Positions 33,947 through 64,000 of a DNA stretch of 64,000 nucleotides are shown here, in pieces. The notes beneath the pieces were generated by a model. It ran no database searches and was not told the origin of the DNA. It was given only the letters and a program-made list of their open reading frames with translations. Position 1 is the first letter of the stretch, and every line of letters begins with the position of its first letter. Origin of the DNA: Gnetum montanum (Eukaryota; Plantae; Gnetophyta). The stretch spans positions 716,355-780,354 of the forward strand of contig MNCI01002682.1 of NCBI GenBank assembly GCA_015680685.1. Reading direction: 5' to 3'. Made by a program: the position numbers and the translations under genes.

Positions 33947-36900
33947 AGCGGGTGAACCATTGTGTGTCCTTGAAAATTGTGGGCTAATAATACCCTACAA
34001 GTAGGATCTTAATGGCTGTGCGGCGTCTAGCATAGTGGCCCCCACAAGGGCCCTCGTGAGCATCTTGGAGGACGTGCAATGTATCACCATCAGGGACACA
34101 CCATCGAACCAAGCCATCTGCGCACACCTTGTAAAGGTGGCCATTGATTTCCATGAAATGGTTGGCCTTATGGAGAAACTGTTGTTTCTACCGATGGTTT
34201 CACTCCTTTGGCAACTCTTGAGTGGTGAGGTAGGTGAGGATGCAGTTGAACTAAGGGAATTCCTTGGGCACCTGTGGATCGACTGCACCAATGAAGAGGA
34301 GTTCATCTGGAAATTGGTCAAAGAGGGGCTCCTCCTCTTATGTGTCATCCCATTGTAACTGAGACAAGTCGTCAACGACCACATTCTCAGTCCCCTTCCG
34401 GTCTACCATGGTGAGATCAAACTCCTGAAGAATCACCAGCTACCAAATGATGTGGGGGCTCACCGTTGTATTGTTCATCAGGAACTGAATAACACTATGG
34501 TCAATATGCACGAACACCTTGTATCCGAGCACATAGTGCCGGAATTTTTCCAAGGTAAACACCACCACCATCAATTCCTTCTCGGTGGTGGTGTAGTTTA
34601 GCTAAGCACCCACAATGCTACAGCTTGCATAGTGGAGATAATATGGATGTTTTTGGTAATCACACTGTGTGAGCACGACTCCCAAGGCGTAGTTAGATGC
34701 ATCTATCATGATGTGAAAGGGCCTGGACCAATTAGGTACACATAGAACTGGAGTTTCTATGAGTTTCTATTTCAGTGCTTGGAATGTAGACTCGCACTCC
34801 TTGGTCCAGATGAACGGAGCGTCCTTCTTTGTAAGTTCTACCAACAGCTTGACGATCTTCGAGAAGTTTTCAATGAAGCGCCGGTAGTAACCAGTGTGTC
34901 CAAGGAATGACCAAACATCTTTGATGGTACTTGGTTAGCAGGTGATTCCTTGGATGACCTTGATCTTTTCAGGGTCCACACTAATCCCTGTTTGTGATAT
35001 GCGATGCCCTAGCACAATGCCTTCTTGGACCATTAAATGGCTTTTTTGCCAATTGAGCCGTAGATTAGTGTCTACACACCTTTTTAGAACTTGCTCAAGA
35101 TAGTCCAAGGCTTACTCGAATGTGGCCCCATAGGTAGAGAAGTCATCCATGAAGACTTCTACCCCATTGCCGATTTGTTGCTAGAAGATGCTTAGGACAA
35201 GGCATTGGGATGTAGTAGGTGCATTACACAGCCCAAAGGGCATCTTCTTGTATGCGAAAGTCCCCCATGAACTCATGAAAGTTGTTTTGGCTTGGTCTTC
35301 TGGTGCTATTTGGATTTGGTTATAACCACTATAACCATTGAAAAAGTTGTAATAGTGGTGCCCTGTGATGGTGTCCAACACCTGGTCCACAAATGGGAGT
35401 GGAAAGTGATCCTTGAAGGTAGCCATGTTGAGTAACCGGAAATCAATACAGACCCTCCATTTACCACCTTTCTTTGGCACGATAATGAGTGGGCTGACCC
35501 ATTCTCTATTGGCAATAGAATAGATGAACCCTGCCTTTAGCAATTGCTCAACTTCATCTTTGACGACCTGCTTCAATTTGGGGTTCAATCATCTTTGTGG
35601 TTGTCGTCGTGGCTTCATGGAGGAGTCGATATAGATCCGATGTTAGCAGACCCTAGGATCAACTCCGGTTAACTCAGGATATGACCATGTGAATGTAGCA
35701 TCCCATTTGTTTACCACCTTTAGCAACTTCTTCTTCTATTTTGGAGCAAGGGTGGCATTGATAATTATCAACTTTCCATTTTGCAAGAAAGCATATTCCA
35801 AGTGAGCTGATAAAGACTTTAGCTCTAAGGGCTCTTGTTTGAAGCTCTAAGGGATTTGTAGCTTCCCCCAATCATCATGGTCATCAATAGTGAAGACCTG
35901 TTTATGAACCTCTTTCATTTCGTCCATGCTTTCAATGTAGGCTTGTATAAGCCCCTCAGATGGTTCCATGCACAATGCGTTGCTAGTAGGATCAGCTGTC
36001 AGCCATTGGGTGCCCTCTTGGTTAGTGGCTGTTGTGTACAGGCATTGTTGAACAGGTGATTCCTAGGTACACCGGCTGCATGCTTGAATGGATATCTGTT
36101 TAGCGAATCATAACTACGGCACATAGTTGTGCCTTGAGTCACTGTATGCAATGCATGGAACACGCTTCTTCTCGATCTTCTTGAAAGGATTTTCCTTTGA
36201 AATTTTAAGGGATAGATCATGAAGTCCTAGTCATGCATCCACCATGCTTAGATAGGCTCTTCCCATGATGATTGGGAAGTTCCCCTTGCAGTTCTCCACA
36301 CGGACGACTAGGAAATCAGTAGGATAGGACCACCCACAAATGATGGTCACAATGTCCTCTACTAATTCTAAGGGAACAGTGATGGACTGGTCTACTAACT
36401 CGAGCCGAATGTTGCTCTTCTTTAGCCGGGGTAAGTTCTAGTTCTTGTACATGTAATGAGAGATCAAATTTATCCCTGACTCCGAGTCTAGAAGAGCTTT
36501 GCATGGCTCATTCCCTACCACCTGAAGATAGATGAGGGGGCTTCCAGAATCAGTCAATTTCTGGGGAAGGTGACCTACCTTGATCCAATCGGTCACAGAA
36601 TGCATGAGCATGACTGTCTGGACATTGGAGTGTGGTTGGCTTAAAGGCTGCTCAGGCAATGGAATAGTGGAGGTGCTTGAAGGTTTAGAGGCACTGGCCA
36701 CAGGTGTATGTGAGAGTATGTTCAGATTATTGGGTCGGAAGAAAGGACGTTTTCATGGTTTGGGTTCTGGTCCACTTGGCTAAGGTGCCGGTTGTAAGTT
36801 AACAACCCTCGTAGCATTTCGTTGCTGCGGCTATGGCGATATCTCTCCTTGCATCGGAGGGGTAAGTGGAAGCTGAGTGGGATGTTGTGGAGGAGTGGCA

Positions 36901-38890
36901 GAAGAAGGTGATGGAGATTGATGTCAGAAATATTCTGGGGGTTGGTAATGACTTTGAAAGGCCGCATGACTGGAAGAGTCCTATGGAGAGACCGGTTGCT
37001 GAACGTAGTACCCATAGGGATCTAGCTATTTGTAAGGGTACTACTACCTTGGAGGTGGCATCCCCCATGCTTGTGGGTGCTGCCACTATTGGAAGTATTC
37101 TTACGGTTGCTGTGGCGCTCCACTTGGATAGTATCCTTACTGCTGGTGGAACTGCCTTGGGTTGCCTTATGGGTAAGGTAGCCTTCGGGGTGTGTGCCTC
37201 TTCGCTAAGTGAGGATTTAGTGCATACACCCCAGACTCTTGAAGATGTGACACCACAGGACAACATCCCTTAGGATGTTCATATTGGCATATGCCACATT
37301 CATCATCCTCCTTGATGTCAGAGTCTGCAACCTGCTCAGCTACAACAACTTTGCCCTTACCCTTATATTGGGCATGTTCAGCTTCCTTCTTCCTGCGTCA
37401 ATCATGGTCATTACCTTATTCTCTGGACACTTCTGCAATCTTTAGCATACTTTGGAATTTTTTGTCCAAAGAGTCCCACATCTTATCAACCTTTGCCAAA
37501 CTTTCAGATGCAAACATTTGTAATGGCAAGGTCTTTCGGTTCACCACTGCTTCTAGTGGTGATTCCTCCTCCTCATCAAAAAATTGGACTTTCCTTTTTC
37601 TAAGGGAAGGATCCCGGTTGAATTCTTCTGCACTCTCCTTTTTTCTCAGTTCTCCTTCCTCCTTGGTCACTTATTCAATGAGGTGCTACAATTGATGGGC
37701 CCTTAGCTCCGATAGTCATCCCTTGACGTACACGTCAAGGGTCTTTCACGTTTCAAAATGGAGCCCATCAATGATGTGGTAAAGCTGGTCCTGCTGAGAG
37801 TAACCATAACTAGGGCACTAATGTAGTAGTGAATAGTATCTTCTCATGGTTGCATCCAAGGGTTCATGATTGCCTTGTTTCCACCATTGGATCTGATGTC
37901 TCAGGTTTGCCACTCTAGAGTACATTATCTTTTGATTGATTCCAGCTCCAAGGACTGGTACCAATTTTCGGCTTCCTTGATTAGTGTGCGAGGAAACAAC
38001 TTCAGCCTCTGCCAATCATTGTCAATGTTCTGTAGGGTGTAGGCATCATGGAATGGCTGCAGGTGAGTCTGTGGATCACAATTGTATCCCCCTTCAAATC
38101 TAAGGATGTTGTTCATATCTAGATCTAGCTATCCTTCACGTGCCTATTGGGAATCTGAATCACCTACACGATCTAGAGCATGCTTTGAGTAGCCAACAAT
38201 GGCTCATCTGCATCATAGTCCTGCTGAGGACCATGATGTCTATGACGATTCTGGTGGCCCCTCTTTTCATGACAATGAGGCTTACACGATTAGTCGCGCG
38301 TTTCCTCATGCTGTTCCTTTCGAACCTTCTTACCATCGTCCTTTCACTTCTTTTTACCCCGGTTACGATCCAAGCCTAAGCTGGATGAAGGTGTAGGAGA
38401 GCAAGAGGATGGAGAAGAAGGATAGGTATTGCCACTATTCCGATGTCGATCTTCCCCTCTACCCTAATGACAACCTCGATCAGCCTGCCCATCCTTGCTA
38501 TGTGACCCTCCATCCCCTTGAGGATCTTGGTCACTTAGAGGCTTGTTCTGAATGATGGACTGCAGGATCTATTGCCCGAGGAGAAGTTCAGTCGAATGGG
38601 TATCATGAAAAATGGGATCCCTATCGTCCTGCAGCCCTTGCGAGAATAAGGGTTTATTGAATTATTTCCCCTTCTGATGTTCATATTTGTTTGCTTGCTA
38701 CTGATCTCGTGCTCATTGAGCCTTAGTGGGATGATAGTCCCGGTAGTCATGGTCCTCCATGACATACTCCACTCCACGGTCCTGGATGCCTAGTCTTCCA
38801 AGATTGTGGAATAGCATCGCAGGAGCTGATTGGTTGGGTGGTAGCACGATGTTGCCCTCCATGTCCCGCCATCATAGATGCTAATCCTGA
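33947..38890 (-). pseudogene. Element E gag-pol
   Basis: LKLFPRTL, ALLDSESGINL, WVSPLIIVPKKGGKWRVCIDFR, KDHFPLPF, YKKMPFGLCNAP, EVFMDDFS, RNase H DAS.YA.G, integrase HEGPCGGH..GYY*PTIFKD. Confidence 0.93.
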
Positions 38891-40085
38891 TGTAGGACGA
38901 AAGTGAAGTCAGGGACATAATCATCGAGATGCTTGTACACCACCCGACATTCTTGTGGCACTGGTGGGTTGGATACCTCTCTCCTGTGAGAAGACATATT
39001 GGATGTTAGATGGTCCATGTAATCGGTGTACTTTACTACTTACTCTAATCTGCCTAGTGTGCATAAATATTTCTATCCTGGGTTCGTTCCAATGACTTGA
39101 ATGATAATTTCACTAAGGTTAGATGACGCATGTAAGACTAACAATCCCCGGCAATGATGCTAAGGATGAGCGGCAAGGTACCCCTACGTCCAACCATACA
39201 AGTAATGGGCGTTCACACGTGACTTGGTCGAATTTCGTAGACTGTAAGCACTTAACATACACCAGACTCTAACCAGCGAAACCTTGGGTTAGAATAGTCG
39301 TTGCCTTCCTAATCTCACTTGTGATGTTCTGTTTGCAATGGTTAAGTGAGATTAAGGCTAATGATTTTTGTAGCTTTTTACTTATCTTTTGGCGTCTAAT
39401 TAAAGTATGGAAAGTAAAGAATGAACTATTTTCTGATCTATAATTATCCTAGTTTGTATTCTAACTATTCCTAGTAGAAGTATCCGATCCCATCTTCCGG
39501 GCACGTTCTGAGCATCCCCTAAGCACTTCTAGGCTACTAGACGGTAAGCATCACTGGGTTTACCAAGTGTTGGGTTTACGTTCGAGATGGTCGTACTTAT
39601 GGCCTTTACGAACCATAAAGGAATGATAGCGATTAAAGTAACGATAATAGAAACTTAAGTAATTAACAGGTAATTAATAAAGCATAAACATATTAAACTA
39701 ATGAATGCATAAAATGGCTAAGTCCAAATGCTGCAAGGAATGCTTGAAGAGTTCGTCTTTATTGCCATCACGCCAATGGGCTCAGATACATCAACACTCG
39801 AATAAAGAGCCAATCACTTTTCTTACACCTGCTACGGGCACTTGGAAAATATTCTATCTCTTGCGGGAACAAACTACAAGAGCTTCGCTACAACTAACTG
39901 AAAGGTACCTGAATGAGGCGAAAGGCCCTCTTATTTATAGGCAGAAATAGGCTCCGCGTAAATGGGGCCACGTCGATGCATGGAAGGCTACGTCGATGGG
40001 GCCGCGTCGATGTGGCTGCGTATATGCAGCCTAGTCAATGCATCGACTTAATGACACTTCATCAGTAACCATTGGAGTTCTCTAT

Positions 40086-41540: not shown

Positions 41541-42780
41541 CTTGGAGGAGGATGGGGGATAGATGTTACACCTCTCTGTAAGGTCCTTTGGCATAGTATG
41601 ATGACTACTTATGTATATACATGGGCTACAATCGATGATGTGTATGGGTTAGTTAGCATGTGATATTGATATATGTTTTATGTTGTCTTATGATATTGAG
41701 ATATGATTTTGGTGCTTCTATGATGATTACATAACATGATTATATGCATTGATCTTATGAAAGATGTTAGATAAGTATTGTAACTAGTAGTGATGGAGGA
41801 TTAGGATAAGAGAAGCAGTTTGGTATATGATTGTAATTTATGCATATTGTTTTGCATTTGTAAATTTGAGATATATGGCTATGTTTGATGAAGTTTAGAC
41901 TAGCTTATGGCATGTGGATGTGTAATATATGTGATGCAGTTGTTATGGGTTTGATCGGTTAAGGATTTGAAATTCTCATGTATAAGTTATAATGTCTTTG
42001 TTTCTCAAGTGTACTAGTTGGATCAGATGAAAATATTTAGGACTTATGAAAATGATTTTGATATTATATATAATACATAGTTTATATAAACATATTCTTA
42101 AAAATATTTTTCTATCCTAATCATTTAAGTTCACTACTTGAAGCATTTTCTGCTAAAACTTGAAATCATTATGGTTGTTTTTCTTCATGTTTTATGAGTT
42201 TGTGAGCTTGTTTAGGATTATTTGGGAATTTTATTTGGCCTTGCTATTATTTCTATACTTGGGTTTGAAGCTTGATTGTGTTGGAATGAAGTTCTATCTA
42301 TGTTATAAATGTTCTATGATTTTTTAGGTTTTAATGATATTTCAATTATGATTGGTAAGTTTACTTTATCTTTTCCATATTTCTTATTTTGAGATTCAAG
42401 TGTGTGTGTTCATGTGGATGGGAGTTTGAGACATAGAGAATTGGATGGTTTCTATGTTGAGTTTAGTTTAGTATGCCATGAGATAGAATCATCAATTTGC
42501 ATGCATGATGGTTTATCTGTGTTTGCTTGAAACTAGGCATTGTGGATTTTGTATGGGGATTGTAGGAACCTATCATAGTACTCTAGAGGATGTTTGAATG
42601 AATTTTATATGTTTATATAGTGTTTTTCTATTTACAATATTTTCATGTTGAAAACTTACATAGATCACGAGTTTTGATTAACTTGGGATCGAGTTCCAAT
42701 GCTAGTTAGTAAGGAATGCAAGTCATGATTATCACATGTCTATGTTGTAACATGTTTTGTTATATGATATTACCTAGGGA

Positions 42781-46787: not shown

Positions 46788-49700
46788 TGATGAGTAGCGA
46801 GGTACCCCTATGCCCAACCATACAAATCACAAGTGTTCACACACGATCCCATCAAATTCCATGGATGGGACTAGTTATGCATCTAAATCGTTATTCCTTG
46901 ATCGCAGTTCACTGTCTTCCCACTTAGACTAGTGGTAGCTTTGTCACGTATGGTTTAGTCCAAAGTGAGACATATGATGATTGATGTTGTTTGACCCTAA
47001 GCTATGATGAGAAAGAAATTACACATTTAATCTAATTAACAATGGAAAGTAAAGTGTAAACTAGCCTACGGATGATGAGTGTCCATTCCTAGCTTGCCAT
47101 ACACATCTTGAACTCACGTATTCACTACTAGGATTTCCAAGTGCTACGCTACTAGGCAAACCAAGCAATAACACTCCTAGGATTACCAAGCAAATATGTG
47201 TTTACACTCAAAATTGGTTGCGTTCATTCGACCAATTCATTAACATGCATGGAAATGTAAATATTAACTAACTACATGGAATATAAACTACATTAAAAGT
47301 AGATTTAATTTAAGTCAAAGTGTTTTAATGAATAAGAATCAATCTTGATCTTACTGCCATTCATGTAATATGTCCAAGGACATTGCCATTCAAATAAGAT
47401 GCCATACAACTAACTCAAATCCATACTATGGGCACTTACTGAGTGTTCTCTAAGACTATGAAATAAAATTACAAGAGCTCAACTACTCTATTGACTAATT
47501 TTTATGCCCAAACCATGCACCCAAGTGCTATATTTATAGTCGACACACATGCCACAATATCAGATATCTGACATCGCATCTTGGCCCTGATATCAGGTAT
47601 CTGATATCGAATGTTCGATATTCAATATCAAAGTTGGGCAAAATATGGTTCATCATACCCCCATAACTGAATGAAAACTCATCTTCGAGTGAAGAAAATG
47701 AGGAATAAGTTCCTTAAAAAATATTGGAAAGGCATGGGATTATTGATTAATATGTAAACTACTGATTGACTCTGAGTGCCACATTACAAAATTTTATTTT
47801 AGTGGATGCATACAAAATGATAGAGTGACAAAAAGACTAGATAAACATTGAAGATTACAAAATTTGTAGAGGTATTCAAGAATCTGCAAAAGATGATTCT
47901 TCTTGTTGCCACTAGCGGTGAGAGACTTTTAACCTTGATTGTTATGTCAATGCTTCTCTAGTTATGTGGAACATTCTTGAAGGCTAGACTGAAATTTCTT
48001 CTCATTGTCCCATGGATCTAGCAGACATGCGAATTTTGAGCTACTATCTTGTATGTGCTATGATTTATTCATGGGAATATCCTTCGTTGTTCCCCTCTTG
48101 ACTTTGTTTTTGCACCTAGTAAAAGACCTTCTTTCTTAGGTGTTTCTTGTAACATCACCTACAGTTACTGAAGGATCAACATTAGTTTTGGTAAATTTTT
48201 CCTTAATAATAAACCCTTTTCAGATTCCTTAGTTTTCGTTTAAGCATAAGGTGATGATAGCATACTATGCCCAAGGCTATGAGGTAACTAAAATCATCAA
48301 GCTATTCATCTTATTGTGGTCAATTACTATTAGTTACCACAATGTTTGAAAATCGGATGTTTGAAAAATTTCAAAAATTTTAAGTAGGTATCCTTAGCCC
48401 TCATGACTAATAAGTGTAACTCCATAAGCACATGAGTTTTTGAACAATTAAAACCAAAGGTTTGATTTAGAATATGGCCAAGAAATATTGAACTTGATGG
48501 ATATTTTAATAGAAAAGTAGGAAAAAGTAAAAAAGCAATTAAAAGGGATAAGTAGTTCCAAAATTATGCATAAATTCAGAGAAACTATCATTAATATTTT
48601 GGAAGATGTGAAGGTTAGTTCAAATCCATAATCAAAAAAAGTTATGCAAGTGGGTCCTCCCCAAAGTAGGCTCCTGCCATAATGCCCTTGCAGAAACATT
48701 TTTATAAATGTCCATGGGCACCCAAGAAGTTAAATGTAGACCATGCCTTTGTTCTAAACAACACACAACTGCTGTGGTTAGGATGTTGCACTATACTACA
48801 CAAAACAAAAAGGCTCATATTTGCATGTAGTAGTGAGGTGAATCATGGGATGAGAAGGGACTGTAGAGATAAGGATGTAAGGTACTTGACCATGTCCACA
48901 ATAGGTTCTTGTGAAGAATGTGATTAAAATGATTAGCATACCCATCCTTCCAAGTTTAGACCAAGTCCATACCATGAACAATAACCTCGCATTGTTGTGT
49001 TCCTTCCTACTGACCACCATGAGTTCACAACCACCTCAAAGAACAATCATCACTCCAAAAAGAGAAGAAGGAAGGAAGGGCCTTAGTTAGAGGGGCATCT
49101 TCAGGCATGGGTAACATGTTTTTCTAACCCCATAACCAGTGCTTGTAGCCCATTATTGTGTCTAAGGGGTGTGCTTTGAATTCCCATTATTATTGTTTGT
49201 TTTTTTTTTGTGAATGGGAACCACACCATGCAAAGACATAGCTTCCTTTTTATTGGTTGACAGGGGAGTGATGATACGTTCCAAGAGGAGTCATAAACCA
49301 CATGAAGGAAGTCAAGAAGAGAACCCAACAAGCCCCTTGAGGTCACATCCTTTGCCATTCCCACTTGTTTATTCTCTCTTTCTTCAAGGTATAATGATCA
49401 TTGATGAATTTTAGTTTCATAAAAGAAGAACCAAATTATTTCCATGATAAAGACCTTTTATTCAAAGAACTGGTAGGATGGATGAGGTGGTCTCACTACT
49501 TTACACAATTAGTTACCCAATCATCTTAATAGCATAGCATAAAAACCCAACAGGTAGCATTGACTTCTGCATCATGACTAGCAATATTATTAATAGAAGC
49601 ATAAAAAGAAAAATATTAAGAAATGAAAAACATATCAAGAATCAGAAAATTTTGGAAGAAATAGGAAAATGATAAAAAACTGTAAAACAAAAAAATTGAA

Positions 49701-50896: not shown

Positions 50897-53800
50897 TGAT
50901 GAGCGGCTAGGTACCCCTACGCCCAACCATACGAATCACGAGCATTCACGAGCGACTTGGTCGAAATCCGCAGACTGTAAGCACTTAACATACACTAGAC
51001 TCTAACCAGTGAAACCTTGGGTTAGAACTGTTGTTGTCATCCTAATCTCACTTGTGAGGTTCTGTTTACGATGGTTAAGTGAGACTAAGGCTAATGATTT
51101 TTGTAACTTTTTAATTATCTTTTTGGGTAGCTAATTATCTTGGAAAGTAAGGCTAGAATATTAATTAATCTAAGATTATCTTAATCTAAATCTTAACTAT
51201 TCCTAACATAAGTATCTGGTCCCATCTTCTAAGCATGTTCTAAGCATCTCCTAACACTTCTAGGTTAACAGACGTTAAGCGTCACTGGGTTTACCAAGTG
51301 TTTGAGTTACGTTCGAGATGGTCGTACTCATGGCCTTTAAGAACTACGAATGAACAATAGCGATTAAAATCATAACAACAAAAACTTAAGTAATTAACAA
51401 GTAACTAATAAAGCATAAACATATTAAACTATTGAATGCATAAAATAGCTAAGTCCAAATGCTGCAAGGAATGCTTGAATAGTTCGTCTTTATTGCCGTC
51501 ACATTAATGGGCTCAGATACATCAATGCTTGAATAAAGAGCCAATCACTTTTCTTACACCTACTATGGGCACTTGAAAAATATTCTATCTCCTACAGGAA
51601 CAAACTACAAGAGCTTCGCTACAACTACTGAAAAGGTGCCTAAACAAGGTGGAAGGCCCTCTTATTTATAGGTCGGGATAGGTAGCTGCGTAAACGGGGC
51701 CACGTCGACACAGGAAGGCTACGTCGATGGGGCCGCGTCAGCGCGGCCACGTATACGTGGCCCCATATACGCGGACAAGTCGACATATCGACTAAATGAC
51801 ACTTCATCATACCCCCACAACTGAGTAAAAACTCATCCTCGAGTTACTTTACAATTTGGAAGGTATGGATTCTTATTTACAGCACACATAACTAAAACAT
51901 GTACATGACACATACATGTCACAACATGAATTTGACCAAGTGCCTGAGTTACAGAGGAGGACAAGTTACAAAAATGATGGTATTCAAAGACAAAATTGAA
52001 CACCTCGCTGGTCCTAGAGCCTTTGCTGTGTAGGATGATGCATAAAATTGCTGGAGATGATCACACCGTTCCTGGGGGCGGTGGTTCTGATGAACCTTCT
52101 CCAGCCTCTGGCCTATGCGTTGGTGGCAGCATGGATGACGGTTGTCCCATAGCAGCTGTAACTTCTGGAGGTAGCCGAAAAGCCTCTAAGAGAGCCCTCA
52201 TTTTTTCTTCTTTACTTCTGGGATTGTTCACTGTCTAGGCAGCTTCTCCAATATGTGCTGGAACTGGAACCTCCCAAGGGCATGGTAGCGTCGGAAGGAG
52301 TTCTTTTAGGTTGACAAACCAGGTTGCGAACTGCTTACGTTCGATGTCAAACGCTCGGATTGATGCCCACAGCTGCTAGTAGTCATTCATTCTACAGCTT
52401 AGGTCCTCTGCGACTGTACGTTGTCCTTCAAAGCTTGTGCGGAGGACCTCGAGTTTCATGTTTACCGTTGCCAGCTTTTGTTTTGTTGCCTTATGTGCCT
52501 GGAACTCATCCTCGTATAGGAAATATGAGGCGACCACTTGCTTTTCTAACTCTGACCACGGTCTCCCAGCTATGAGCATAGCCAGGTTTGCATATCAAAG
52601 GTTGGCGAGCTCCATGTATTCAGTCATCTCCTCAATTTGCAGCTCCTTAAGGTGGATTTCAGCTTGATTTTAGTCATTCAACCCATCGAAGATAGATTGC
52701 CATACATTGCCTCGCTCTTGGAGTTGCTAGAGTGCTTGGTTCATCTTGGCTTTGGCAACTTGAAGATGCTTCTCATTTACCTCCTTCTGCAATCCCACTT
52801 GGTCCGTGTAATGATTTTTAACTTTTTTGAATTTCAAGGCCTCGTTCTTCCAAGCGGAAATTTCAATTGCAGACTTTTGTCATAATGTCCGAACCTCCTC
52901 CATTGATAGATTTCAATTTTCAGTAGCCAACCTTTTTATGTCAGCGTTCACCCTGGCTAGCTCCTCCTGCTGTTGGTGGATGAAATTTTTCATGTGTTCG
53001 TTCTCTGCACCAATATTATGCAAGTGATGAACCTCCGTAGTTAGTGACACGTTTTCCTAGAGAACCTCCACCAAGTCCTTGTCTAAGCGATGTGCTCAGG
53101 CGTCTGCCATGGACTTGTCGAAGATCGTCATCTCTCGCACATCCTCAACGACCTGAAGTTTAAGTTGAAGCTATTGAAAAGCTTCATCTCTGGTGATTTT
53201 GCAGTTGAGGATGGCTGGATTAGCAAGCTGGGCTCTTAATTGGGCTACCTCAGTTGCCAAGCGCTGACAAGCGACTTGAGCAGCTTCAAGTTGCCCTTCT
53301 CAAAATGAGGCTCTTGCCCCTTGCCAAGAGCAGCTCTGACTGGGTTGCAGTAATGTTGTCTAGAAGGTCAAAGACATCTAGAAGTAGTTGCCCGATTTCC
53401 ACTAGTCGGTCCAACAACTCTTCATGTTGGGCTGCATCAATCTTGCTACGCGAAGTTCCAGTAGACACTTGTACATCTTGTAGTCCATGAATATTTTGTA
53501 CAGGTGCTGATAGTGCATTGAGAGCCATAGCAATTGTGTCAGCAACCACTTCAGCCACAACTTCCTGTCCCTGGTGCTGCATCACCAGGACCGTCGCCTC
53601 TTCACCATCTTCTAAGCGTATTGAGAAGGTAGCAGCATTCCCTGAGATTTCAGGGAATAACTGTTGGGTTGAGGTTGATACATCTCGGATGCTTGGATCT
53701 GTTCTAGTTGGAAGTTGTGCTCGAGCAGTGGAGAATATCGGTTCTGCCCTTTCAAGCAAGCTAACTGATTGAGCCACTTGCTCTAGGTGGCTCATGGCAG

Positions 53801-54118
53801 GGCAATAGACCGAAGGGTCTTCTCCTCCACTAGTCCTGTCAGATTGCTCTTGTTGGCTTAAGAGCATTTCCCGGATCTCGCAGATGTATTCTGCCGTGGT
53901 TTGCAAGCCCGGCTACATTGCTTGTGTAGGTGGTGGAGGTGGTTGCTGCTCCTCCTTTGTCTGTGTGGAGGTAGGAGTTTTATCTTTCATCATCTCTCGC
54001 CACGAGGCAATTGGGGTGCACCGGACTACATCATTGGAATATCGTGGTATCCTTGCCAGTTTGCACAACTTTCGAATTAGGCAGGGAAAAGGGAGAGCTC
54101 GTCTTCCACGTTTGTTCT
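50897..54118 (-). mobile_element. Element G: Athila of the E family (3' LTR plus env-like ORF), interrupted by H
   Basis: LTR 50897-51809 similar to the E LTRs; PPT; env-like ORF (LPFPCLI) collinear with E 31800-33860. Confidence 0.92.
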
Positions 54119-55511
54119 TGAAACACCACAAAATTCTGAGCTTAGTACTTCTCCAACAAGAATCGAACTAAAATTGTGATGCTCCCCACCATGACTAAAG
54201 CTTGACGGAGACAAACTGTGCAAGAAATGATTCCCTGAGACCAAAAGAAGACTACGGCGACATCCGGAATCAAACCTACCAAATTTTGAGCTCAACATAC
54301 TTGGTTTTCACTGAGTATGCAGCGTGCACGACCAGCGTATACGCTCAGCGTGTATGCCCAGCGTGTGATTTCAAAGACTATCCGAAACAAGCACTCCAGA
54401 GCAAGATTTTCACAAGGCATCAACTCTCAAAGACAGGGCAATTGTTAGACATCATCATGGGCTCAAGAAAATTGGGTTTCGACCTCAAAATCATGCACTT
54501 TGGGGTTCACACGCCAAGCATGTACATCCTGCACACCCAACGTGTATGCCCAGCATGTATACCCGACGTGCATCATTCAGCGTGCAGCACAACATATATC
54601 AGTGGAACTTTTCCTGAACCATGTCAGATCAAGTCGAACTAAGCTGAACATCCGCAGGCAGCATTCTCGTGGCATCTGACCCTAAATTCGAGGGGCGAAT
54701 TGGGTACTTCCTTTTGTAATAGTAGTTTGTAAAAATGAATCCTTTTGTTTAGTCAAGTTTGTACGCTGAGTTCACACGCCCAACATGTACACGCTGGCGT
54801 GCAGCAACACATGTTGACATGCAGCACGTTGCATAGTTGTAATATTCTTTGCACTCAGGCAACGCAGTTTGTCACCCAATCCGAAATTCCAGCATCCCAC
54901 AGCCAATCATCCCATCTCAGATCCAAATTTAACACCCAAACTTGTACAAAAACCTAGATTTTTGACGAGGTCAGGGTTCAAAAATTAAGAGAATCTTGGA
55001 AAAAATTTGGGCAACCCACACTAAGAACATTCAAAACACCCATCTTGTATGCTGGACTTGGACCCTACATGCTGAGCATACAGCCTCCACGTTGTGCCTG
55101 CAGTCTGAACCAGCACACTGTCACACCGCATCCACCGGGGCTCTTCGTCCACCTTGTGTCAGATTCACAACTACGTCTAGACCGCTGCATTGTAATTTTC
55201 ATTATGCAATAATATTGCTGCATTTTCAGCCAAGATTTGTTATAGTTTTCGTTTGTGTTTCTTTATCTCTTGTTTGCATTCTTGCGTGCTGGTTTACATT
55301 TTTCATACCATTTACGTATAACCTGACATATCGTATATTAGCATATGTTTGGGGAAATCCTTGTCTGACGTGCGGACCACCCAAGGTACTCTACCTTCAT
55401 CAATTCCAGCTCACCCTCAAGCGAAGGTAGGGTCTTCTGTGCTTGTCTGTAGATCTCTTGGCATATATTTCATTCCAGCTACACACTGACGATTTCAGAA
55501 AGTACAGAAAA

Positions 55512-55530
55512 TGGCGCTAGAAGGAGGGCT
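55512..55530 (+). promoter_or_regulatory. Primer binding site (tRNA-Asn) of element H
   Basis: TGGCGCTAGAAGGAGGGCT, complementary to the plant tRNA-Asn(GTT) 3' end as I recall it (...AGCCCTCCTTCTAGCG-CCA). Confidence 0.8.
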
Positions 55531-55699
55531 TGAAATTTTTTAAATCTACTCTAATCTCATATGCCCACACCCTGTGCTTTTGATCCACCGCCCCGTTTTC
55601 TTACATTTACATCGCGTCAACATCAAATCTAATTTTGAACCTCCCAAATCTGGGCCTTGTTCTGCAGCATTCTCAACATCTACACGCTGCCCATTTTTT

Positions 55700-55845
55700 G
55701 CATGTTGTAGAGTCCGTCTACACACCACCTGCCAACCTGCACACTGTAGACTCTGTCTACACACTGCTTGCCAACCTGCATGCTATAGACTCTGTCTACA
55801 TGTTGCCGAGCTCCTGCATGTTGTGGACCCTGTCTACATGCTACA
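55700..55845 (+). repeat. Tandem repeat of about 39 bp (3-4 units) in the H 5' leader, each with a GTAGAC-nnn-GTCTAC hairpin
   Basis: gtagactctgtctacacactgcttgccaacctgca-like units. Confidence 0.85.
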
Positions 55846-56339
55846 CGCTGTCCTGCGCGCTCATCACTCTACTTATACGTTGACAGTTGCAGCCTACACG
55901 CCGTGACCTCAATTTACACGCTGTGACTAGTTTTTGTATGTTGGTCGCCGAAGTCTGTCTGCTGAGACCTAGTCCATACGCTGTGCAAATAGGCCGCACG
56001 CTGCCAACTTAGGTGTACGCCGATAAGCACCTCCATTTCATACTTGGCCAAATCCTCACCTGTACGCCTTGACATTGTATCCCCTCTACCAGTTACATTT
56101 GCAACCCTTTCACCATGAATACCGCCAACACCAACATTTCAACCAAGTCCATTCCGGATACCATTGGCCCAACGACGACGCTGATGCCCATTATGCAACC
56201 CATAGGGGTCCACGGTGAGGTTAATCCCTGAGGAGGACCCCGCTGATCTCTCAGACTGCAAGGGAAGAATCCATCATTTAACGTTATCACACAGGAGCAA
56301 TACAATTTTATATGCATAAAAATCCAAGCCGGCCTGGTA

Positions 56340-59300
56340 GTGGATCGAACTGAAATGGAGGCTAAGCGAAAATATGAACTGTTTCATAGGGGAGGACATG
56401 AGTTCATCCCTTCCCCGTATGACATCATCCCTCTCCCCGAGCACTACTCTGAACTTATCTCACAGCTCCTCCTAGCCAGGAGTCAGACCCTAGACCAGCC
56501 CATACTAAATCCCCAATCAGAAGAGGAGGATGACTTTGCTGCTCAGTCCAAACACGAGGAGTCATACCATACACTTAGTCTGCACACTTACGCGAACCCG
56601 CTATTCCATCCTCTCATGGGGGAGATCATGTCCCTCCATTCATTCAAAACCACTCAAGCACATGTACCTCAACAAGAAGCATCCATGCTTATTCCCACTC
56701 CCCAAGTCACTGATACCCAACTCAATATACCTCTCACCACTATTCCTCCCATTACCACATTGCCCCCTCTCTTGCAAATACAACCCCAAAAACAACCCCC
56801 GCAAACCAATGTAGGAGCAACTTTCCCACCTCAAGTGATCGGGAAGCCATATGTGATACCTGCTTCTACATCTGTGCACTATATACCACAGATCCAAACC
56901 CAAATAACACCCTTCATCACTTCAACTCAACAAGTTCAGGGTGCTCCCTCACAAATCATGACTGGACAGTGGGCTGGGACTGGTACACAAGCACATCAAC
57001 CCCCTAACTACAATGTACCACCTCCTACAATTCCCCTCATAAACATCCCTCAAGTACAGCAACAACAATAACAACAATCCTTCCCTTACAGTATGCTACC
57101 CTTAGCAGCACCTACCATGAATATTCCACAAGCGCAACCCCCAACCACTCAACTTTCCTCTTTCCCGCCCACCATACAACAATCTAACTTGTATACTACA
57201 CAACATAATCAATCTACCATCTCACCTAGTGCCCAAGACTGGGTTGACACCAAAAAACTGATGCAAGAGCTAACTAACAAGGTTAAGCGCCTCAAAACAG
57301 CTATCGACGAAGAGCTTAAGATAGTGGATTTCTATCAAGATGACCCTATTAGCTCTTCGGTTCCACCTCTAATGTTACCTAAGGGTGTTTCCTTACCCAC
57401 GTTAACCAAATACAATGGGGAGACAGACCCCAACGCCCATCTTATAACGTTTAGATTAGAATGCGTGTTACTTCAGGTGTGGCCGCATGCCATCTTGCGA
57501 GTGTTCCCCATGTCCCTCACAGGAAGAGCACTTGACTGGTATCGGGCTTTGCCCTGAAACTCAATATCTTCTTTAGAAGATTTATTACACTAGTTTGTTA
57601 CCAGGTTCAAGTATAACTTGAAGCCTGAAGCAACACTTGGTGGCCTCATACAGGTCAAGCAAGCACCGCTTGAACCTGTTCAAAAATTTATCCAACGGTG
57701 GAGTGCCGCCCTCAATGAGCTCCATGAGCCAATCCCGGAGACTTATCTCCTCACTATTCTAAAGGGGGCCGTCAATGATTTCATGAAGTCCAAATTATAT
57801 TATCTTAATGCATGCACTCTTAGCCAAGCATTTGTACAAATAAAGAACATAGAAGAGGCAGCCCAAAATAGCCATGACCCTGCCTATTCAGCCTTTAAAA
57901 ACCAACATAATAAGAAAGAAAAAGAAAAGGCTAAGGCAACTATAGCGGTAGTAGCAGAAACACAACGAACGAGTACAGGACAACAAGGCAAACCGCCTAC
58001 TGCCCCTACCAACTATGCTAGACCTACTCCCGCTACTGCACCCGAATTGTCCACATCACAAAATCCTACGCCAGGTCATGCGAGAAACTTCGAGAAGAGA
58101 GACCCCTCTCAATACACACCGTTACCTATGAAACCCTCACAATTATTTGACCAACTCTTGAACACCGGGCTAATGAGACATAAGAAATTGTTCCCCGCAG
58201 CAATCCAAAGACATGATCGATTCTGTCAGTTGGTCGAGAACCCAAGCTTGGCAATGTCAGATGAGTCCGCAGTTCCAAGAGGCTTTAGAATAGACTGCTT
58301 TTGTGATTATCATCAACGCAAAGGACATGGCACCGACTATTGTTTCACCCTAAAACAAGATATTCAATGGATGATCGACGGAGGTGAGATCACTTTTGAT
58401 CAAGCCAACCCGGTCAAACCACAAAACCAGGCCATGGGATATATAAGGATCCATTAAATACTAAGGAAGCACCATATGTAATTAACACTATCTACTTAGA
58501 CAGTGAACAAGAAGCACCTAGGATTAACACCATTTACTCAGATAATGAACAACAAATACCTAAGAGACCATTTGTAGTTTGTATTCCTCCTACTACACAA
58601 ACGACCACACCTCAATCATCATACTCTCCATGTAACCCGCCTACCTCGGAAAGATCCTATGCCATCCAGATACCCCCCGCGGTGGCAGCCTCTACCATAC
58701 CATCAAAATCGTACGTGGTGCATGTATCTCCCGCCGCTACCACCGCAAATACGCAACCTCCGACCCGGCCCGCTCCCTATGTAGTCCGGGTGCCACCTGC
58801 GGTCGCAACTATGGAGGTACAACCCCCAGCTAGACTAGCCCCATATGTTGTTAGGATACCTGAACATCCTAATAACCACCAACCTTCCACCCCGCACACA
58901 CAAAATAAACCGAACCTATATGTTGTTAGGGTGCCCAGGCAGTGTGACACTCAACCACCTTCGACCGTCGAATCGCAATACCGTCCTACTCCATACGTCA
59001 TACAGGTTCCAAAGCAACTAGATGTTTAGAAACCAAATGTTTCCCTGCGCCACACACGGGAACGCCTGGCAGACAGGCTCACATGGGAACGATTGGAGAA
59101 AGAACATCAACAGCTTGCCTTAGGACCCCCCAAGCCCACCCCATTAAGTGCAATACCCATGGCGTCACCTACCAACCAACCGAGTACGAGCTATAAGGGA
59201 GAATCATCAGGAATGCATGATGCATCCAAATCAACAGTTACGGAAGAAAACGTTAAACTAGCCACACATGAAATAAAACTGTTGGGCCCGATGGACCAAG

Positions 59301-60430
59301 TAACCATTAACAAGCATACACCTAACAATAGAGACTTGGTAACAGCCCTAACACAGGTCACGCAAGCACTGAAATAGAAAAATACTTCACTAAGCCTATA
59401 TGACCTAATATTAAGCTCTCAAACTCATCGCGAAGCCCTAGTACACATGTTAACATCAATCCTAGTAAGCGAAAACTTACTCGCAGATGAGCCTTCCATA
59501 CATGCGGTAATGTCTAAACGACAAGGATCCAAACCCAAATCGTTAGGCTTTCACCCTGAGAACATTAAGATCGACGAGGAAATCGGAAACGTCACCCACG
59601 AACCCATGTTTATAACCATACGAGTTAATCAGTTCAAGATACATCGAGTACATGTAGATGATGGAGCAGCCACAAATGTGGTGCCTTACCCTATCATTGA
59701 ATAGTTAGGGCTTACAGACTTAATTAAACCAACGTCTACCACATGTTTAAAATCGTTTAGTAGATCACGCGTAGTAGTAAAAGGCACCATAACTCTGGAC
59801 TTTATAGCAGGGGATCGATTCCCCACATCTGCTAACTTCGTTGTCATCGACGAAATGCCAGGGTTCAACTTAATATTAGGAAGACCCTAGTTGGCCCAAC
59901 TCAAAGTAGTCTCTTCCCCTATACACCAAGAGATTCACCTGCCTTATGAAGGTGGTGAAATCATTATACACGGGGAGACTGCTACACCTACCATCTTGTC
60001 ACATACAGATACAAATCAAGGCTTGGAGGTTAAGTTTGAAGAGCCTAAACAGGATGACACAAATGAAAAACAAAGTTGCACGCAGCCAATAAACAATGAT
60101 CCATTAGACGTAAATGAAACTCTACCCAACATAGAAACACCCGGACTTGAAACTATACATACACCGCCTAACCGAGAAACTACACCAAACATCAAAACTA
60201 CTGTATGTACAGAAACACTAGAAAACCCCAACATAGAGCCTATTCCATCAGACGTCCCTTGGGCTGAGTTACCTTTCAACGTAATCAGCGAAGGAGACGC
60301 TGAGTACAGAATCACTCCTATTAGCATCACTCCTAACGTTAAATTAAGAAAAATAAAAAAATTGCTAAACTACCAACTACATTCTTCATCCGAAATGACG
60401 TTAAACTACCACATGTCCGCAATGACATAA
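56340..60430 (+). pseudogene. Element H gag-protease polyprotein (stop-interrupted)
   Basis: Consecutive ORFs 56340-57071, 57093-57557, 57618-58457, 58682-59029, 59093-59377, 59447-59704 and 59891-60430, carrying gag, CHHC zinc knuckle and aspartic protease motifs. Confidence 0.9.
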
Positions 60431-61167
60431 AACTAGCCACAGCCAGAAATGGCCAGTTTACCAAGGACCCCACCAGTATCATTTGAAACTTCTCTTGTTT
60501 ACATATGGTCCAAAATGGCCTTAAACTAGTGCATGGGGCCCGAAATGGCCCTGAACTAGAACATCGAGACTACAGTTTGTCATGACTTTAAATTAACACA
60601 CATGGCCCGAAATGGCTTTAAACTAGAGCATTTTCTTATATTTCTTTTCTCTCAATTCAAGTTTACAGTTTGAATGTATGCTTACCCTGTTGCATTGTTA
60701 CGTTATCAGCCATAGTTTTCCTTCATATCCTCCTTTTTTACCTGATTATGCTCCTACTTCTGTTCCTACCTCGTGCATTATACTTAAACAACAAAATGAA
60801 CAAAAAGACTTTACATTGCTGCATTGTGTTTACATTCATGTCCAAAAGGTTTCACTTTAAATTTATGCTTATCAGTGTTCAAACAAACGTAAAATTCAAA
60901 CAAAAAAAAGGGAATAATAGAAAACTCAAAAAAAAAATAGTATAAATGTATCAACATCAAATTACAACTTAGTGCAATGTTCCCACACGATACATAGATC
61001 ACATACATAATCACTTTAACAACAAACTACGAAAAAATATATTCCTATACAAATAGACAATTACAACGGTTAACTGATTCCGTCCATTAGTTCATATACA
61101 GTCCAGGGCAAAACATTCTGTTCGCGACTCATTAAAAACATGAGCGATCATAAGACCAAATTGAAAA

Positions 61168-64000
61168 CTAAGCATCAGGATCGGGAGGGGTGTCCCCTTT
61201 AGAGTCCTCGGCACCATGGGTCCCTGCTCCATTGGGGTCACCTTCTTGACCATCGTCGTCGCCCTGACCCTATGAAAAGGTAAAAGAAAACAATTAACAC
61301 AAAAAGAAAAGAGAAGAATTCCAAAAGTCATTTAACAAACAAAATTCACAAGTTTAAACGACTTACAGAAGAAGATCCTCCTAGACCGAATTCCAACCGA
61401 CAGAGGATTTCTTCTTCAGAGACACTTGCCCAGTCAGTCCCATCAAGGCCTAGATCAATGTTGGCCAAAGCCTTCCCTTTGTCCACTGCGGACCAAGTGG
61501 GACATTTCAGAGGAAACTCCCCCACAGAAACCTCCCCAGAAGCTGTGGTGATTACCCTCTTGGGCGATTCCATCTCCATCATAGTATGCTTAGCAAACGC
61601 ATCAAATGAAGAGCGCAGGCCTAAACCCTCAACAAACATCTCCAGCTAACGCTTCTCTATAGATACCTCCTTTAACGATTTTTTATAATGATCCTTATGG
61701 GTCTTTTCATCTTGACCCCATTTTTGCACCTTAGAAGCGAAAGCCTTCCAATTCTGACATTTGAGGTTCAATAAATCTATTTGTGCCTTATGCTCTACTA
61801 GCTCCCAAGTCAATGATACTTGGCGATTCAATAAATTCCAATATCTGTTGTAAGTAATCTTGGAAGTTCGCCAAGAACGATCACCTGTTAACCTTGCCGA
61901 GGTGAACTCATAGCGCAATTTGAGATCATCCCGTTCTACTGATAGCCTGGAAATCTCTTTTTTCCTTGCCTGACTCTGCAACCATAGCCTCTTGATGGAG
62001 CGTCTACAGGTCCAAAGAGACTTCGCATTCTACACAATGCATTCTGCCACTTCATCATAGATCTGTCGGGGTACTTGCTCAATCTCTGGTGGTAGTGCAG
62101 GCAAGCTATCGATACACGTAGCCTCAGATGGATCCCACCTCAGCTTAGTCCCTATCCACATGAGACAAACATGCATTAGACATCGGACAGTGAAAACAGA
62201 TGCAAAAAGAAAATCGAAGGATTCGAAACGCTTAAGATATATGTACCTATGTTAGGATGAGCTTGCTGGATGCGATCAACTACCTCATCAATGACACCAG
62301 TTATAAAATCCATTTTACTTGGCATTTCAATCCAAGTAAAAGGTTCATGCATAGGAGATGCGTTAACATCGGTGGTCGTTTCTGTAGGAGCCTTCATCAT
62401 AGGGACTTCTAAATGAACGTTAGGAATCGAGTTGATCTCAACATTTTCGCCTTATAGTAGTAAAAACATAAAATCAAAATTTGGAATAATGGAAAGTACA
62501 ATTCAAAAGACAAATAAACAGGAGAACATACCAGAATCTCTATCCTCTTACGGATTCGGAGGATTGCCAAGATCTAGCCTCCCTCCGAAGAAACCATCAA
62601 ACATCTCATCAACTCCATCCTGATCATCGATGTTACCCTTTTCTGTGGTATCTCCCTCCCGATCTTTCATTCCCCCCATCTCGTCTCTTCCCGTTTCATC
62701 CTCCTCATTTAAGTTCGTTGAGACCTCTTCCTCCTCGATGATCGATGCTAATCTCTCTTTTCTTACTTTAGAAGTCAACTCTAATGGCATTCATAGGTTC
62801 AACATCGGTTTTGTATAAACAGCCAAAAAACAAAGTAAAAATAACGATGACGATGATAAAACAAGGACAAATCAGTGAATCAAGCTTATCCCATGTAGGC
62901 ATCTTAAACCGTATACGTTTCACCCTTAGTTCATATGCAGTTAGAGCAACCTCTCTAGGATGTTCACGCTTCTGAACTTTTGATTTTGCTTTCTCGATCG
63001 TTTCCTTGATCACCCGATTAGCTCTCCTAGTAGTATAGGGCACACTATCTGGTTCCAACCCTATGCTGTCATGCGTATGAATTGAATGACCAGATGAACC
63101 CTCCATTGTGACAGAAACCGATTCGTCAATCCCCTCAGGAGCATCTTGAGATTTGACCACCTCAAATAAGTGACGAATCCATAGGCCAGATAGTTGGTGG
63201 CGATTCCTTAACACATACTTGTTATCTGCACGAACAACTAAAAATTCAGCCAGCCAGCGCAAGTAACCGGCAAAGAATGCAAAGGTGAAATGGGATTGCG
63301 CCTCAATGTTTGAACGTAACCTCACTAGCTTCCCGTGGAAACCTGAAAGTAAAAAATCGGCCTAATTATAACATATCCCAGTCTCGAGAATAGTGTGCAT
63401 GATACACAGAGGTTCTACCCCAACAGTTTTTACTTGAGACAGAGATTTGGGAAACACCCGCGCTCTGAACAAGGGATACAACTCATTAACCTTAGCTACT
63501 TTCAATTTTCTCTACATGGGGAACCCCTTAGCGCCTTTAAGAATGCCCAACCAGTTCTCCAACGCACGCACAACATGGAGCTCTTTTTGCGCTCTATCAA
63601 AAATCACTTTAGTCCCAGCTGTCGGTACACCAAAGAAGTCTAAGAAGAACTTCGCCGGCAGATGGAAAACCACTTTGACACCCTTGACGCGAGTGCTATA
63701 GTAGGTGACAGATTTGTTGAAAGAATCAATGATTCTAATCATCTCCATCACAGAAACATCAGGGCTCAGAGTAGTAAACAAATCCATGAGGCCCACATCA
63801 CTCAAACAACTGATGATATGCAGCGGTGCCTTAGTACGTAACCATCGCTGCATGTTATTGATTTTCCTGAACTTCATGGACAAAGTGCTCTCAGTCCGCC
63901 TGGTTGTGATAGTGGCTCCACCAGGGGGGACATCCACTGTGCACACAAGATAACCCCAGGGAGTCAATATAACCAATGATGTAGCAGAACGAACAAATTG
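61168..64000 (-). pseudogene. Antisense multi-exon extra gene in element H (PMD-like N-terminal part, acidic linker, coiled-coil C-terminus)
   Basis: Exons >64000-62890, 62810-62532, 62450-62247, 62151-61367 and 61269-61168 join in frame; three canonical GT-AG introns and one decayed intron; only point-mutation stops. Confidence 0.75.

What the first reader, a model, noticed from the sequence alone, without database searches (positions are those of the whole stretch)
61168..64000. Intron-containing antisense gene of more than 800 codons carried inside a Tat/Ogre-like retrotransposon
Seen in sequence: six minus-strand ORF-track fragments join into one frame once four short U-rich introns are removed. 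These are 61270-61366 (TCT|gtaagt...tttcatag|GGT, phase 0), 62152-62246 (G|gtacat...ggatag|GG, phase 1), 62451-62531 (G|gtatgt...ctataag|GC, phase 1) and a decayed one at about 62811-62889 (ataagc...tacaa, both ends G>A). The six internal stops can each be reverted by one transition (to CAG, CAA, CGA or TGG), and there are no frameshifts. The product has a YN(W)ADFLL-containing N-terminal domain reminiscent of the plant mobile domain, an acidic linker, a coiled coil and an acidic tail ending PPDPDA. Established: some Tat/Ogre elements carry antisense extra ORFs, and antisense introns survive retrotransposition because the genomic RNA is the other strand. Inference: this is an element-encoded accessory gene of unknown function (for example anti-silencing), transcribed from the 3' LTR side, and I do not recognise the protein family.
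Basis: partly seen in the sequence, partly recalled or inferred. Interest (0 to 1): 0.8.

Follow-up and report, generated by a model that had tools for sequence, protein, structure and literature searches.

The report
Spliced antisense gene in plant retrotransposon
A dead copy of a high-copy plant jumping gene that lacks its own copying enzymes carries, on its opposite strand, a real intron-split extra gene that related copies still transcribe; its protein likely resembles DNA-binding anti-silencing factors and would then protect the element, but that role is untested.

Summary
The gene is real. Five exons on the minus strand join in one frame of 826 codons with six stops. Three introns are canonical; the fourth has non-canonical ends and uncertain borders. 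The family is high-copy. Sibling copies differ mostly at third codon positions, read open codons at two of the stops, are polyadenylated about 250 bases past the stop, and show one of the four splice junctions in RNA. This copy is dead.

The host is a Tat-clade Gypsy element with LTR, primer site, gag and protease but no reverse transcriptase, RNase H or integrase. The 3' LTR lies beyond the window, so containment is inferred.

Pfam does not recognise the protein; PMD membership is unproven. An end-to-end profile test links it weakly to another plant extra-ORF family whose model best matches the anti-silencing protein VANC21, while three other tests did not. The LTR and leader carry arrays of one short motif.

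Antisense domain-plus-coiled-coil ORFs are known in Tat elements; introns in a plant one were not found in ten literature searches. The scan noted the same layout before in fungal Gypsy elements, not on this DNA. Verdict: new variant of a known kind.

The parts
54114..54118 (+). candidate left target-site duplication (GTTCT)
   Evidence: likeness of the interrupted Athila-like element to its sister copy stops at 54119; right-hand copy not in the window
54119..55506 (+). 5' LTR (borders inferred: TG start, CA end 5 nt before the primer site)
   Evidence: partner LTR not in the window
54313..54826 (.). three arrays of a 13-bp-period motif with core CACGCTG in the LTR (54313-54379, 54518-54575, about 54770-54826)
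55512..55529 (+). primer binding site; match to tRNA-Asn is recalled, not tested
   Evidence: same 18-mer follows LTR-like ends in most of 68 fetched loci
55699..55853 (+). four 39-bp units with the same motif in the 5' leader
56247..58457 (+). gag, broken by 3 internal stops
   Evidence: Pfam Retrotrans_gag E 7.7e-07
58400..60430 (+). frame with a protease-like region (about 59357-59930), 4 internal stops; no RT, RNase H or integrase follows
   Evidence: tblastn to L031 protease E 4.8e-11; no pol hit between protease and 61168
60389..60632 (+). array of six 27-30 bp units between protease and the antisense gene
60912..61167 (-). 3' untranslated region with poly(A) site at about 60912-60917 (seen in a related copy)
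   Evidence: poly(T) loose ends in runs X11 and X12; U-rich, 6 UGUA, longest A-run 3
61168..61269 (-). last exon, acidic tail and stop
   Evidence: RNA reads of related copies
61270..61366 (-). intron, GT-AG, 97 nt, phase 0; junction seen in RNA of a sibling copy
61367..62151 (-). exon with basic coiled-coil-like region; 2 stops in this copy
   Evidence: (APG6_N coiled coil, E 0.23, below cut-off)
62152..62246 (-). intron, GT-AG, 95 nt, phase 1; junction not seen in RNA
62247..62450 (-). exon, no stop in frame
62451..62531 (-). intron, GT-AG, 81 nt, phase 1; junction not seen in RNA
62532..62810 (-). exon, acidic linker (28% D+E); 2 stops in this copy
62811..62889 (-). probable intron, U-rich, non-canonical ends in this copy, borders uncertain
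   Evidence: DNA contigs 4 and 7 run through it without gaps, RNA depth dips
62890..64000 (-). first visible exon: basic N-terminal domain; 2 stops; frame open to the window edge; first ATG 63877; acceptor-like site at 63937

Best explanation
This is a dead copy of a real, intron-split antisense gene of a high-copy family, likely carried by a non-autonomous Tat-clade Gypsy retrotransposon and likely encoding a PMD/VANC-fold DNA-binding protein with a coiled coil that would bind the motif arrays in the element's own LTR and leader and keep them transcribable. Shown: the exon-intron layout, the high copy level, selection on the minus-strand frame, polyadenylation and one splice junction in sibling copies, the missing pol, the motif arrays. 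Inferred from established biology: the introns survive because the packaged RNA is the other strand and is never spliced at them; the element borrows RT, RNase H and integrase from an autonomous partner. Inferred, weak: the fold (about 60%). Speculative: binding to the motif and anti-silencing (about 30% overall).
For: Gene: 6 stops in 826 codons against at least 27 in simulations. Family: 6863 contigs of run X1 lie on 1746 bases, summed depth up to 26000 against 6-10 for single contigs (the tool warns that this is no copy number). Selection: of 40 listed variant rows (310 more not shown) 34 lie in exon 61367-62151; 18 of 34 are third positions (p 0.014), and 15 of 21 where the window's letter is the majority in DNA (p 4e-4). 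Stops at 61648 and 62032 are open codons in 69% and 75% of DNA depth and in 26 of 27 (X15+X16) and 12 of 12 (X11) RNA reads. Splicing: 8 reads of X16 leave the exon and continue with letters matching the start of the last exon at 18 of 24 against 6 of 24 for the intron; best offset in a 300-base scan is exactly 61269, next best 13. None of the 6 DNA joints listed is an exact intron loss. Poly(T) loose ends before 60912-60917 in 95 reads of X11 and 103 of X12. Fold: an extra-ORF family found in 8 of the 68 loci that share the primer site gave a model of pLDDT 76 whose best match among 48161 chains is VANC21 bound to DNA (9lnk_A, Z 7.2, rmsd 4.5, 209 aligned; next Z 4.5). End-to-end alignment of that family's profile to the N-terminal domain scored above 150 of 150 shuffles and 58 of 58 real-protein decoys; z 0.6-4.6 over 24 settings, 3 or more in 13 of 24. 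Tat lineages III and V carry antisense PMD or PMD-coiled-coil ORFs (PMC4408406); PMD and VANC share a fold (PMC13547354; 10.1101/2024.09.27.615353). Motif: 9 copies in 2132 bases, 0 in the other 62 kb, 0.18 expected.
Against: No Pfam family for the N-terminal exon at E up to 1. Three tests of the link to the VANC-like family failed or were marginal: pairwise z 1.4, equal to a gag control; local HMM 1.0-1.5 bits, 15-19 of 1000 shuffles as high, not among the top 8 of 876 window tiles; hhalign probability 0.42%, 24 of 150 shuffles as high. The end-to-end test was tried last, its bounds were set by eye, and the domain was not in the top 10 of 876 tiles (stops scored neutral there, which lifts non-coding frames). 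Z 7.2 is within the range the tool calls common. Only 1 of 4 junctions was seen, as a loose end; no joint table lists any of the four. Nearly all RNA reads are under 95% alike, so they come from other copies, and the poly(A) reads fit only about 110 bases of the window. No read or contig links gag-protease to the gene, and the 3' LTR is outside the window. Repeat arrays are common in Tat elements (PMC11963269, PMC6317226), so the motif need not be a binding site.
Confidence: 0.5

Rival explanations
1. The gene is element-borne and spliced, but its protein does something else: for example it guides integration or nuclear import, or acts with Gag, and the motif arrays are unrelated repeats.
For: No Pfam hit; three of four homology tests failed or were marginal. 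Reviews leave the role of antisense ORFs open and name nuclear import and regulation (PMC7264820); an env-like role was discussed for PMD-coiled-coil ORFs (PMC4408406).
Against: No clear membrane segment (best 19-residue hydropathy 1.47 and 0.64). Basic N-terminal domain (14% K+R, 7% D+E). End-to-end profile signal. An element without integrase keeping a selected gene fits a role at transcription at least as well.
Confidence: 0.3
2. The gene belongs to a separate, repeated DNA transposon (a Mutator-like VANC-type or CACTA-type accessory gene, which commonly have introns) inserted into or beside a truncated Tat element.
For: The 3' LTR is not seen; nothing links gag-protease and the gene physically across copies; the best fold lead is a DNA-transposon protein; DNA-transposon genes are typically spliced (PMC13547354).
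Against: Same stop density as gag and protease; position and direction are those of Tat 3' antisense ORFs, after a tandem array as in Retand (PMC11963269); RT-less Gypsy families with an antisense ORF are known (PMC4093653); only chance-length (10 bp) inverted matches between the spacer and the gene, though the far end is out of view.
Confidence: 0.15
3. It is a host gene or pseudogene, in place or captured once, with no role for the element.
For: Short canonical introns and a normal plant 3' end look like those of a host gene.
Against: Thousands of contigs and many diverged variants; third-position bias among copies; several different expressed variants (loose ends); four species labels hold 0.30 or more of its words.
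Confidence: 0.05

Closest known systems
Antisense 3' extra ORFs of Tat lineages III and V / Ogre (PMD or PMD plus coiled coil; PMC4408406 sections 6 and 11; PMC6317226 additional files 4 and 5: PMD in 431 Ogre 3'R ORFs, 3'R ORFs in 60% of Ogre, 18% of TatIII, 86% of Retand)
   Same: Antisense, 3' of the sense genes, globular domain followed by coiled coil, Tat-type gag.
   Different: Four introns (none mentioned in the passages read; that survey called ORFs of 250 codons or more without splicing); no Pfam PMD hit; host element lacks pol; primer site is not the usual tRNA-Arg type if my recalled tRNA-Asn match is right.
Retand antisense ORFs (TRP28; Grande gene23, RIRE2 orf, Retand ORF3/4; PMC11963269, PMC7264820)
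   Same: [quoted passage not shown]
   Different: No Transposase_28 hit; the word 'intron' does not occur in PMC11963269; gag groups with other loci.
pvRetro137 and pvRetro143 of common bean (PMC4093653)
   Same: Gypsy families without an RT domain that keep an opposite-strand ORF.
   Different: Shorter ORFs (535 and 347 aa); no introns mentioned (0 occurrences).
VANC21 of VANDAL21 (PDB 9lnk; described in PMC12844716, PMC13547354) and MAIN/MAIL PMD proteins (10.1101/2024.09.27.615353)
   Same: Possible shared fold, coiled coil, short motif arrays in non-coding parts of the element.
   Different: VANC is from a DNA transposon and is experimentally proven; here fold is indirect and binding untested.
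brtn of Boty-like elements of Botrytis cinerea (title seen in the references of PMC8365987; paper not held)
   Same: Additional antisense gene in a Gypsy element.
   Different: Fungal, unrelated lineage; that it has introns is recalled and suggested by earlier scan notes, not checked.

Membership tests
Ty3/gypsy Tat clade (non-chromovirus, OTA) | RT-RH-INT phylogeny and an extra RNase H domain | not testable with these tools
   the element has no RT, RNase H or integrase in the window (the neighbouring Athila-like pol was found at E 8e-92 as control)
Ty3/gypsy Tat clade (non-chromovirus, OTA) | gag and protease related to Tat-type elements | tested here: met
   Retrotrans_gag; best relative L031, gag 27% over 369 aa, E 5e-29, protease E 5e-11; groups with L031 and L067 at 98/95 in a 26-row tree, long end branch; no named reference in the tree
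LTR retrotransposon | two LTRs, 5-bp target-site duplication, polypurine tract | not testable with these tools
   only the left LTR and left site are in the window; no genome held; no LTR match or purine tract at the right end
LTR retrotransposon | primer binding site just after the 5' LTR | tested here: met
   TGG-starting 18-mer at 55512, shared with plant LTR elements; tRNA identity recalled
TatII | extra RNase H between protease and RT | tested here: inconclusive
   no RNase H after the protease, but pol is missing; gag falls outside the group with L022 and L009, which have that layout
Ogre / TatIII | dominant primer tRNA-Arg (89% / 64%) | not tested
   no plant tRNA set was available; my recall of the 18-mer is tRNA-Asn, which PMC6317226 file 5 lists for TatII, Athila and Retand
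Tat antisense 3' extra ORF (eORF-3'R) | opposite strand, downstream of the sense genes, conserved among copies | tested here: met
Tat antisense 3' extra ORF (eORF-3'R) | lies inside the 3' LTR boundary | not testable with these tools
   window ends inside the gene
Plant mobile domain (PF10536) | Pfam PMD match | tested here: not met
   0 families at E up to 1 for the first exon; Pfam also missed 26 of 27 members of the VANC-like family as Transposase_32 and all 27 as PMD
Transposase_28 (PF04195) / Transposase_32 (PF20167) | Pfam match | tested here: not met
   neighbours' extra ORFs did give weak Transposase_32 hits in the same call
PMD/VANC fold | structural match to VANC21 | tested here: inconclusive
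   own model unusable (pLDDT 33); indirect link through another family (for; 94, 100, 103 against)
VANC-type anti-silencing system | short motif repeated in non-coding parts of the element | tested here: met
   9 copies against 0.18 expected, none elsewhere in the window; motif picked as the top-ranked word, so the expectation is not corrected for selection
VANC-type anti-silencing system | protein binds the motif and lowers methylation | not testable with these tools
   needs binding and methylation data

The most novel reading that the evidence does not exclude
A plant LTR retrotransposon family runs a VANC-like self-recognition system: an intron-containing antisense gene makes a PMD/VANC-fold protein that binds the CACGCTG-core arrays in its own LTR and leader and lifts silencing, and the family has shed RT, RNase H and integrase while keeping this gene under selection. 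Intron-split genes of this kind would be under-counted by ORF-only surveys.
Probability: 0.25. Interest if true: 0.8.

Novelty: new variant of a known kind. Interest (0 to 1): 0.5.

Why it matters
The role of antisense extra genes in plant Gypsy elements is a stated open question, and a 2020 review asked for antisense and spliced transcripts to be looked for (PMC7264820). This case gives one with introns, a poly(A) end, selection and expressed siblings, in an element that kept it while losing pol. It also offers a concrete protein-and-motif pair to test whether retrotransposons, like VANDAL DNA transposons, encode sequence-specific anti-silencing factors. If the function fails, it remains a further example of a known layout with a protein that Pfam does not recognise.

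Tried and rejected
No genome is held for the window, so copies and the right flank could not be read. No RNA holder listed in the run index. Word-based protein searches with the first exon found nothing, but the same tool also found nothing for this element's gag, so these blanks say nothing. The search for related loci with the coiled-coil ORF found no relative in metagenome contigs. The primer-site scan of viral contigs gave one unrelated phage-like locus. tblastn and phmmer of both large exons against 69 loci and the rest of the window gave no hit. The single-sequence model was unusable (pLDDT 33) and matched nothing. Foldseek and a sequence search of solved structures found nothing for the L065 family; only the wide VIA search did. 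A 9-sequence profile of that family did not rank the N-terminal domain in its top 12. A private frameshift instead of the first intron was considered and set aside: two listed contigs run through the segment without gaps. Internal priming as the source of the poly(T) reads was considered and is unlikely for the window's sequence (no A-run over 3 in the region), but the expressed copy's own DNA was not seen. A strict intron filter found 3 segments on the whole minus strand, 2 of them these introns, but its thresholds were set from them. No sensitive large-library search (full HMMER or language-model) was run on the N-terminal domain itself, so distant named relatives remain possible.

Full report
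Observation. The minus strand of 61168-64000 holds five exons (1111, 279, 204, 785 and 102 nt) that join in one frame of 826 codons before a stop at 61170, with six internal stops at the places given. The best frame of 500 composition-matched simulations never had fewer than 27 stops. Three introns are GT-AG, 81-97 nt, U-rich, with a branch-like pentamer 27-28 nt before the end. The fourth segment (62811-62889) is equally U-rich but has non-canonical ends here, and four other canonical pairs nearby would keep the frame, so its borders are open. The frame runs off the window; the first ATG gives 785 codons, and an acceptor-like site at 63937 may end another intron.

The host element. It interrupts an Athila-like element: likeness to that element's sister copy ends at 54119, right after GTTCT. 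An LTR-like stretch runs to about 55506, a primer site follows at 55512, then gag (Pfam E 7.7e-07) and a protease-like region. No RT, RNase H or integrase lies between the protease and the antisense gene, while the neighbour's pol was found at E 8e-92. The closest, L031, has protease followed by RT with no RNase H-like ORF between them by eye. The window's gag groups with L031 and L067 (98/95, long branch), apart from loci with RNase H before RT, the TatII layout of PMC6317226. So it is Tat-like and non-autonomous, but the lineage cannot be fixed without pol. The 3' LTR is not in the window. Gag, protease and the antisense gene are equally decayed (7 of 1412 against 6 of 826 codons are stops, p 0.57).

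Copies and selection. Nine of 21 listed runs hold the stretch or part of it, four species labels at 0.30 or more. In run X1, 6863 contigs lie on 61215-62960, with summed depth far above single-contig depth. The four intron-centred bins are less covered than the other 26 (median 1400 against 5917, p 0.011), but some exon bins are as low. Forty variant rows were shown and 310 were not; I dropped 6 that lie outside exon 61367-62151. Of the 34 left, 18 are third positions; 15 of 21 where the window agrees with most DNA depth, and 3 of 13 where it does not. Two of the four stops in the laid stretch appear among the rows and are open codons in most DNA depth and nearly all RNA reads; the other two were not shown.

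RNA. Five RNA runs were laid (X11, X12, X14, X15; X15, X16, X11; X15 and X16 are one sample). Nearly all reads are under 95% alike, so they come from other copies. No joint table lists a predicted junction. One junction shows as a loose end: 8 reads of X16 continue from the long exon into letters that fit the start of the last exon (18 of 24) and not the intron (6 of 24). RNA depth is 0 over that intron in all three runs while DNA depth is 3018. X11 depth dips over 62808-62866 (4.95 between 24.2 and 17.5). In X11 and X12, 95 and 103 reads carry poly(T) before 60912-60917 on first mates of the plus strand, which I read as the poly(A) end of a minus-strand RNA about 250 bases past the stop; these reads fit only about 110 bases of the window.

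The protein. It has a basic N-terminal domain, an acidic linker, a basic coiled-coil-like region and an acidic tail. Pfam gives nothing for the first exon. By eye it resembled an extra-ORF family present in 8 of the 68 loci (which element carries that family is not established). A search with its L065 member gave 324 proteins, 150 listed; 86 were aligned and folded (pLDDT 76). The best of 48161 chains was VANC21 on its target DNA, Z 7.2, rmsd 4.5, 209 aligned, the only one at Z 5 or more; I had named this expectation from PMC13547354 before the search. The link from that family to the window's protein is weak: pairwise, local HMM and hhalign tests failed or were marginal, and a later end-to-end profile test passed against 150 shuffles and 58 decoys, with z from 0.6 to 4.6 across settings. 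The order of helices and strands in the two models is similar, but one model is unreliable. I put the PMD/VANC fold at about 60%.

The motif. The LTR and leader hold arrays with a 13-bp period and core CACGCTG: 9 copies in 2132 bases, none in the other 62 kb. VANC21 binds short motifs in tandem repeats of its own element (PMC12844716, passage). Tandem arrays are also common in Tat elements without any such proof, and an earlier scan note (e1-7572074) found similar motif loads in relatives lacking the gene.

Mechanism. [quoted passage not shown] The protein would oligomerise through its coiled coil, bind the element's motif arrays and keep the LTR active, while pol functions come from a partner. 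The first half is shown in part; the second is inference.

What is known. Antisense PMD and PMD-coiled-coil ORFs in Tat lineages III and V (PMC4408406, sections 6 and 11 and passages), their frequency (PMC6317226, passages and additional files 4 and 5; file 1 too large to read and may bear on lineage), Retand ORFs (PMC11963269, part 1 of 5 and passages; PMC7264820, parts 1 and 2 of 3), RT-less bean families with such an ORF (PMC4093653, passages), Gypsy-borne PMD-A (PMC5418596, passages), PMD-VANC likeness (PMC13547354, passages; 10.1101/2024.09.27.615353, abstract and passages, supplements closed). PMC9289625, PMC11728184, PMC13317346, PMC8365987 and PMC9804982 were read as passages and added little. 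Steinbauerova 2011, Gomez-Orte 2013 and Zhao 2011 were not read and could mention introns. Ten searches showed no report of an intron-containing antisense gene in a plant Tat element; the library lacks most subscription papers. The scan has many fungal cases of this layout and none on this DNA.

Verdict. Observation confirmed; interpretation partly supported; new variant of a known kind; interest 0.5, rising to about 0.8 if the protein proves to be a self-targeting anti-silencing factor (probability about 0.25).

Noticed in passing
window 56204-58611: In stranded-looking runs X11 and X12, reads over gag lie on the same mate orientation as the antisense gene's poly(A) reads (83.7 against 1.2 at 57408-57708), i.e. 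apparently RNA antisense to gag: read-through of the antisense gene or host pre-mRNA; unexplained.
   Followed up: no
L065:2898-5987 and relatives in L005, L010, L016, L030, L042, L052, L053: An extra-ORF family beside plant LTR elements that Pfam mostly misses (1 of 27 members with a weak Transposase_32 hit) has a confident model whose best structural match is VANC21 (Z 7.2).
   Followed up: partly
window 30684-40064 and 50899-54119: Two copies of an Athila-like element on the minus strand (LTRs of the first 92.7% alike), each with a sense extra ORF weakly matching Transposase_32; the second is interrupted by the element studied here.
   Followed up: partly
window 22396-25625: Another minus-strand Gypsy-like element with gag-like and protease-like ORFs, partly similar (68-72%) to 36135-38155; contains the assembly gap (237 N in the window).
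   Followed up: no
window 60306-60562: Expressed sibling copies have a shorter stretch after the protease and a different number of 27-30 bp units (joints and loose ends).
   Followed up: no
window 58400-59030: Proline-rich repeated peptide units between gag and protease, with a frame change relative to gag near 58400-58457.
   Followed up: no
window 12267-13499 and 41652-42736; 26745-28276 and 47235-48779: Further diverged repeat pairs (72-76% alike) not identified.
   Followed up: no
L001: The one viral-contig match to the primer-site pattern is a GC-rich phage-like contig with terminase- and portal-like ORFs by eye; a chance match.
   Followed up: no
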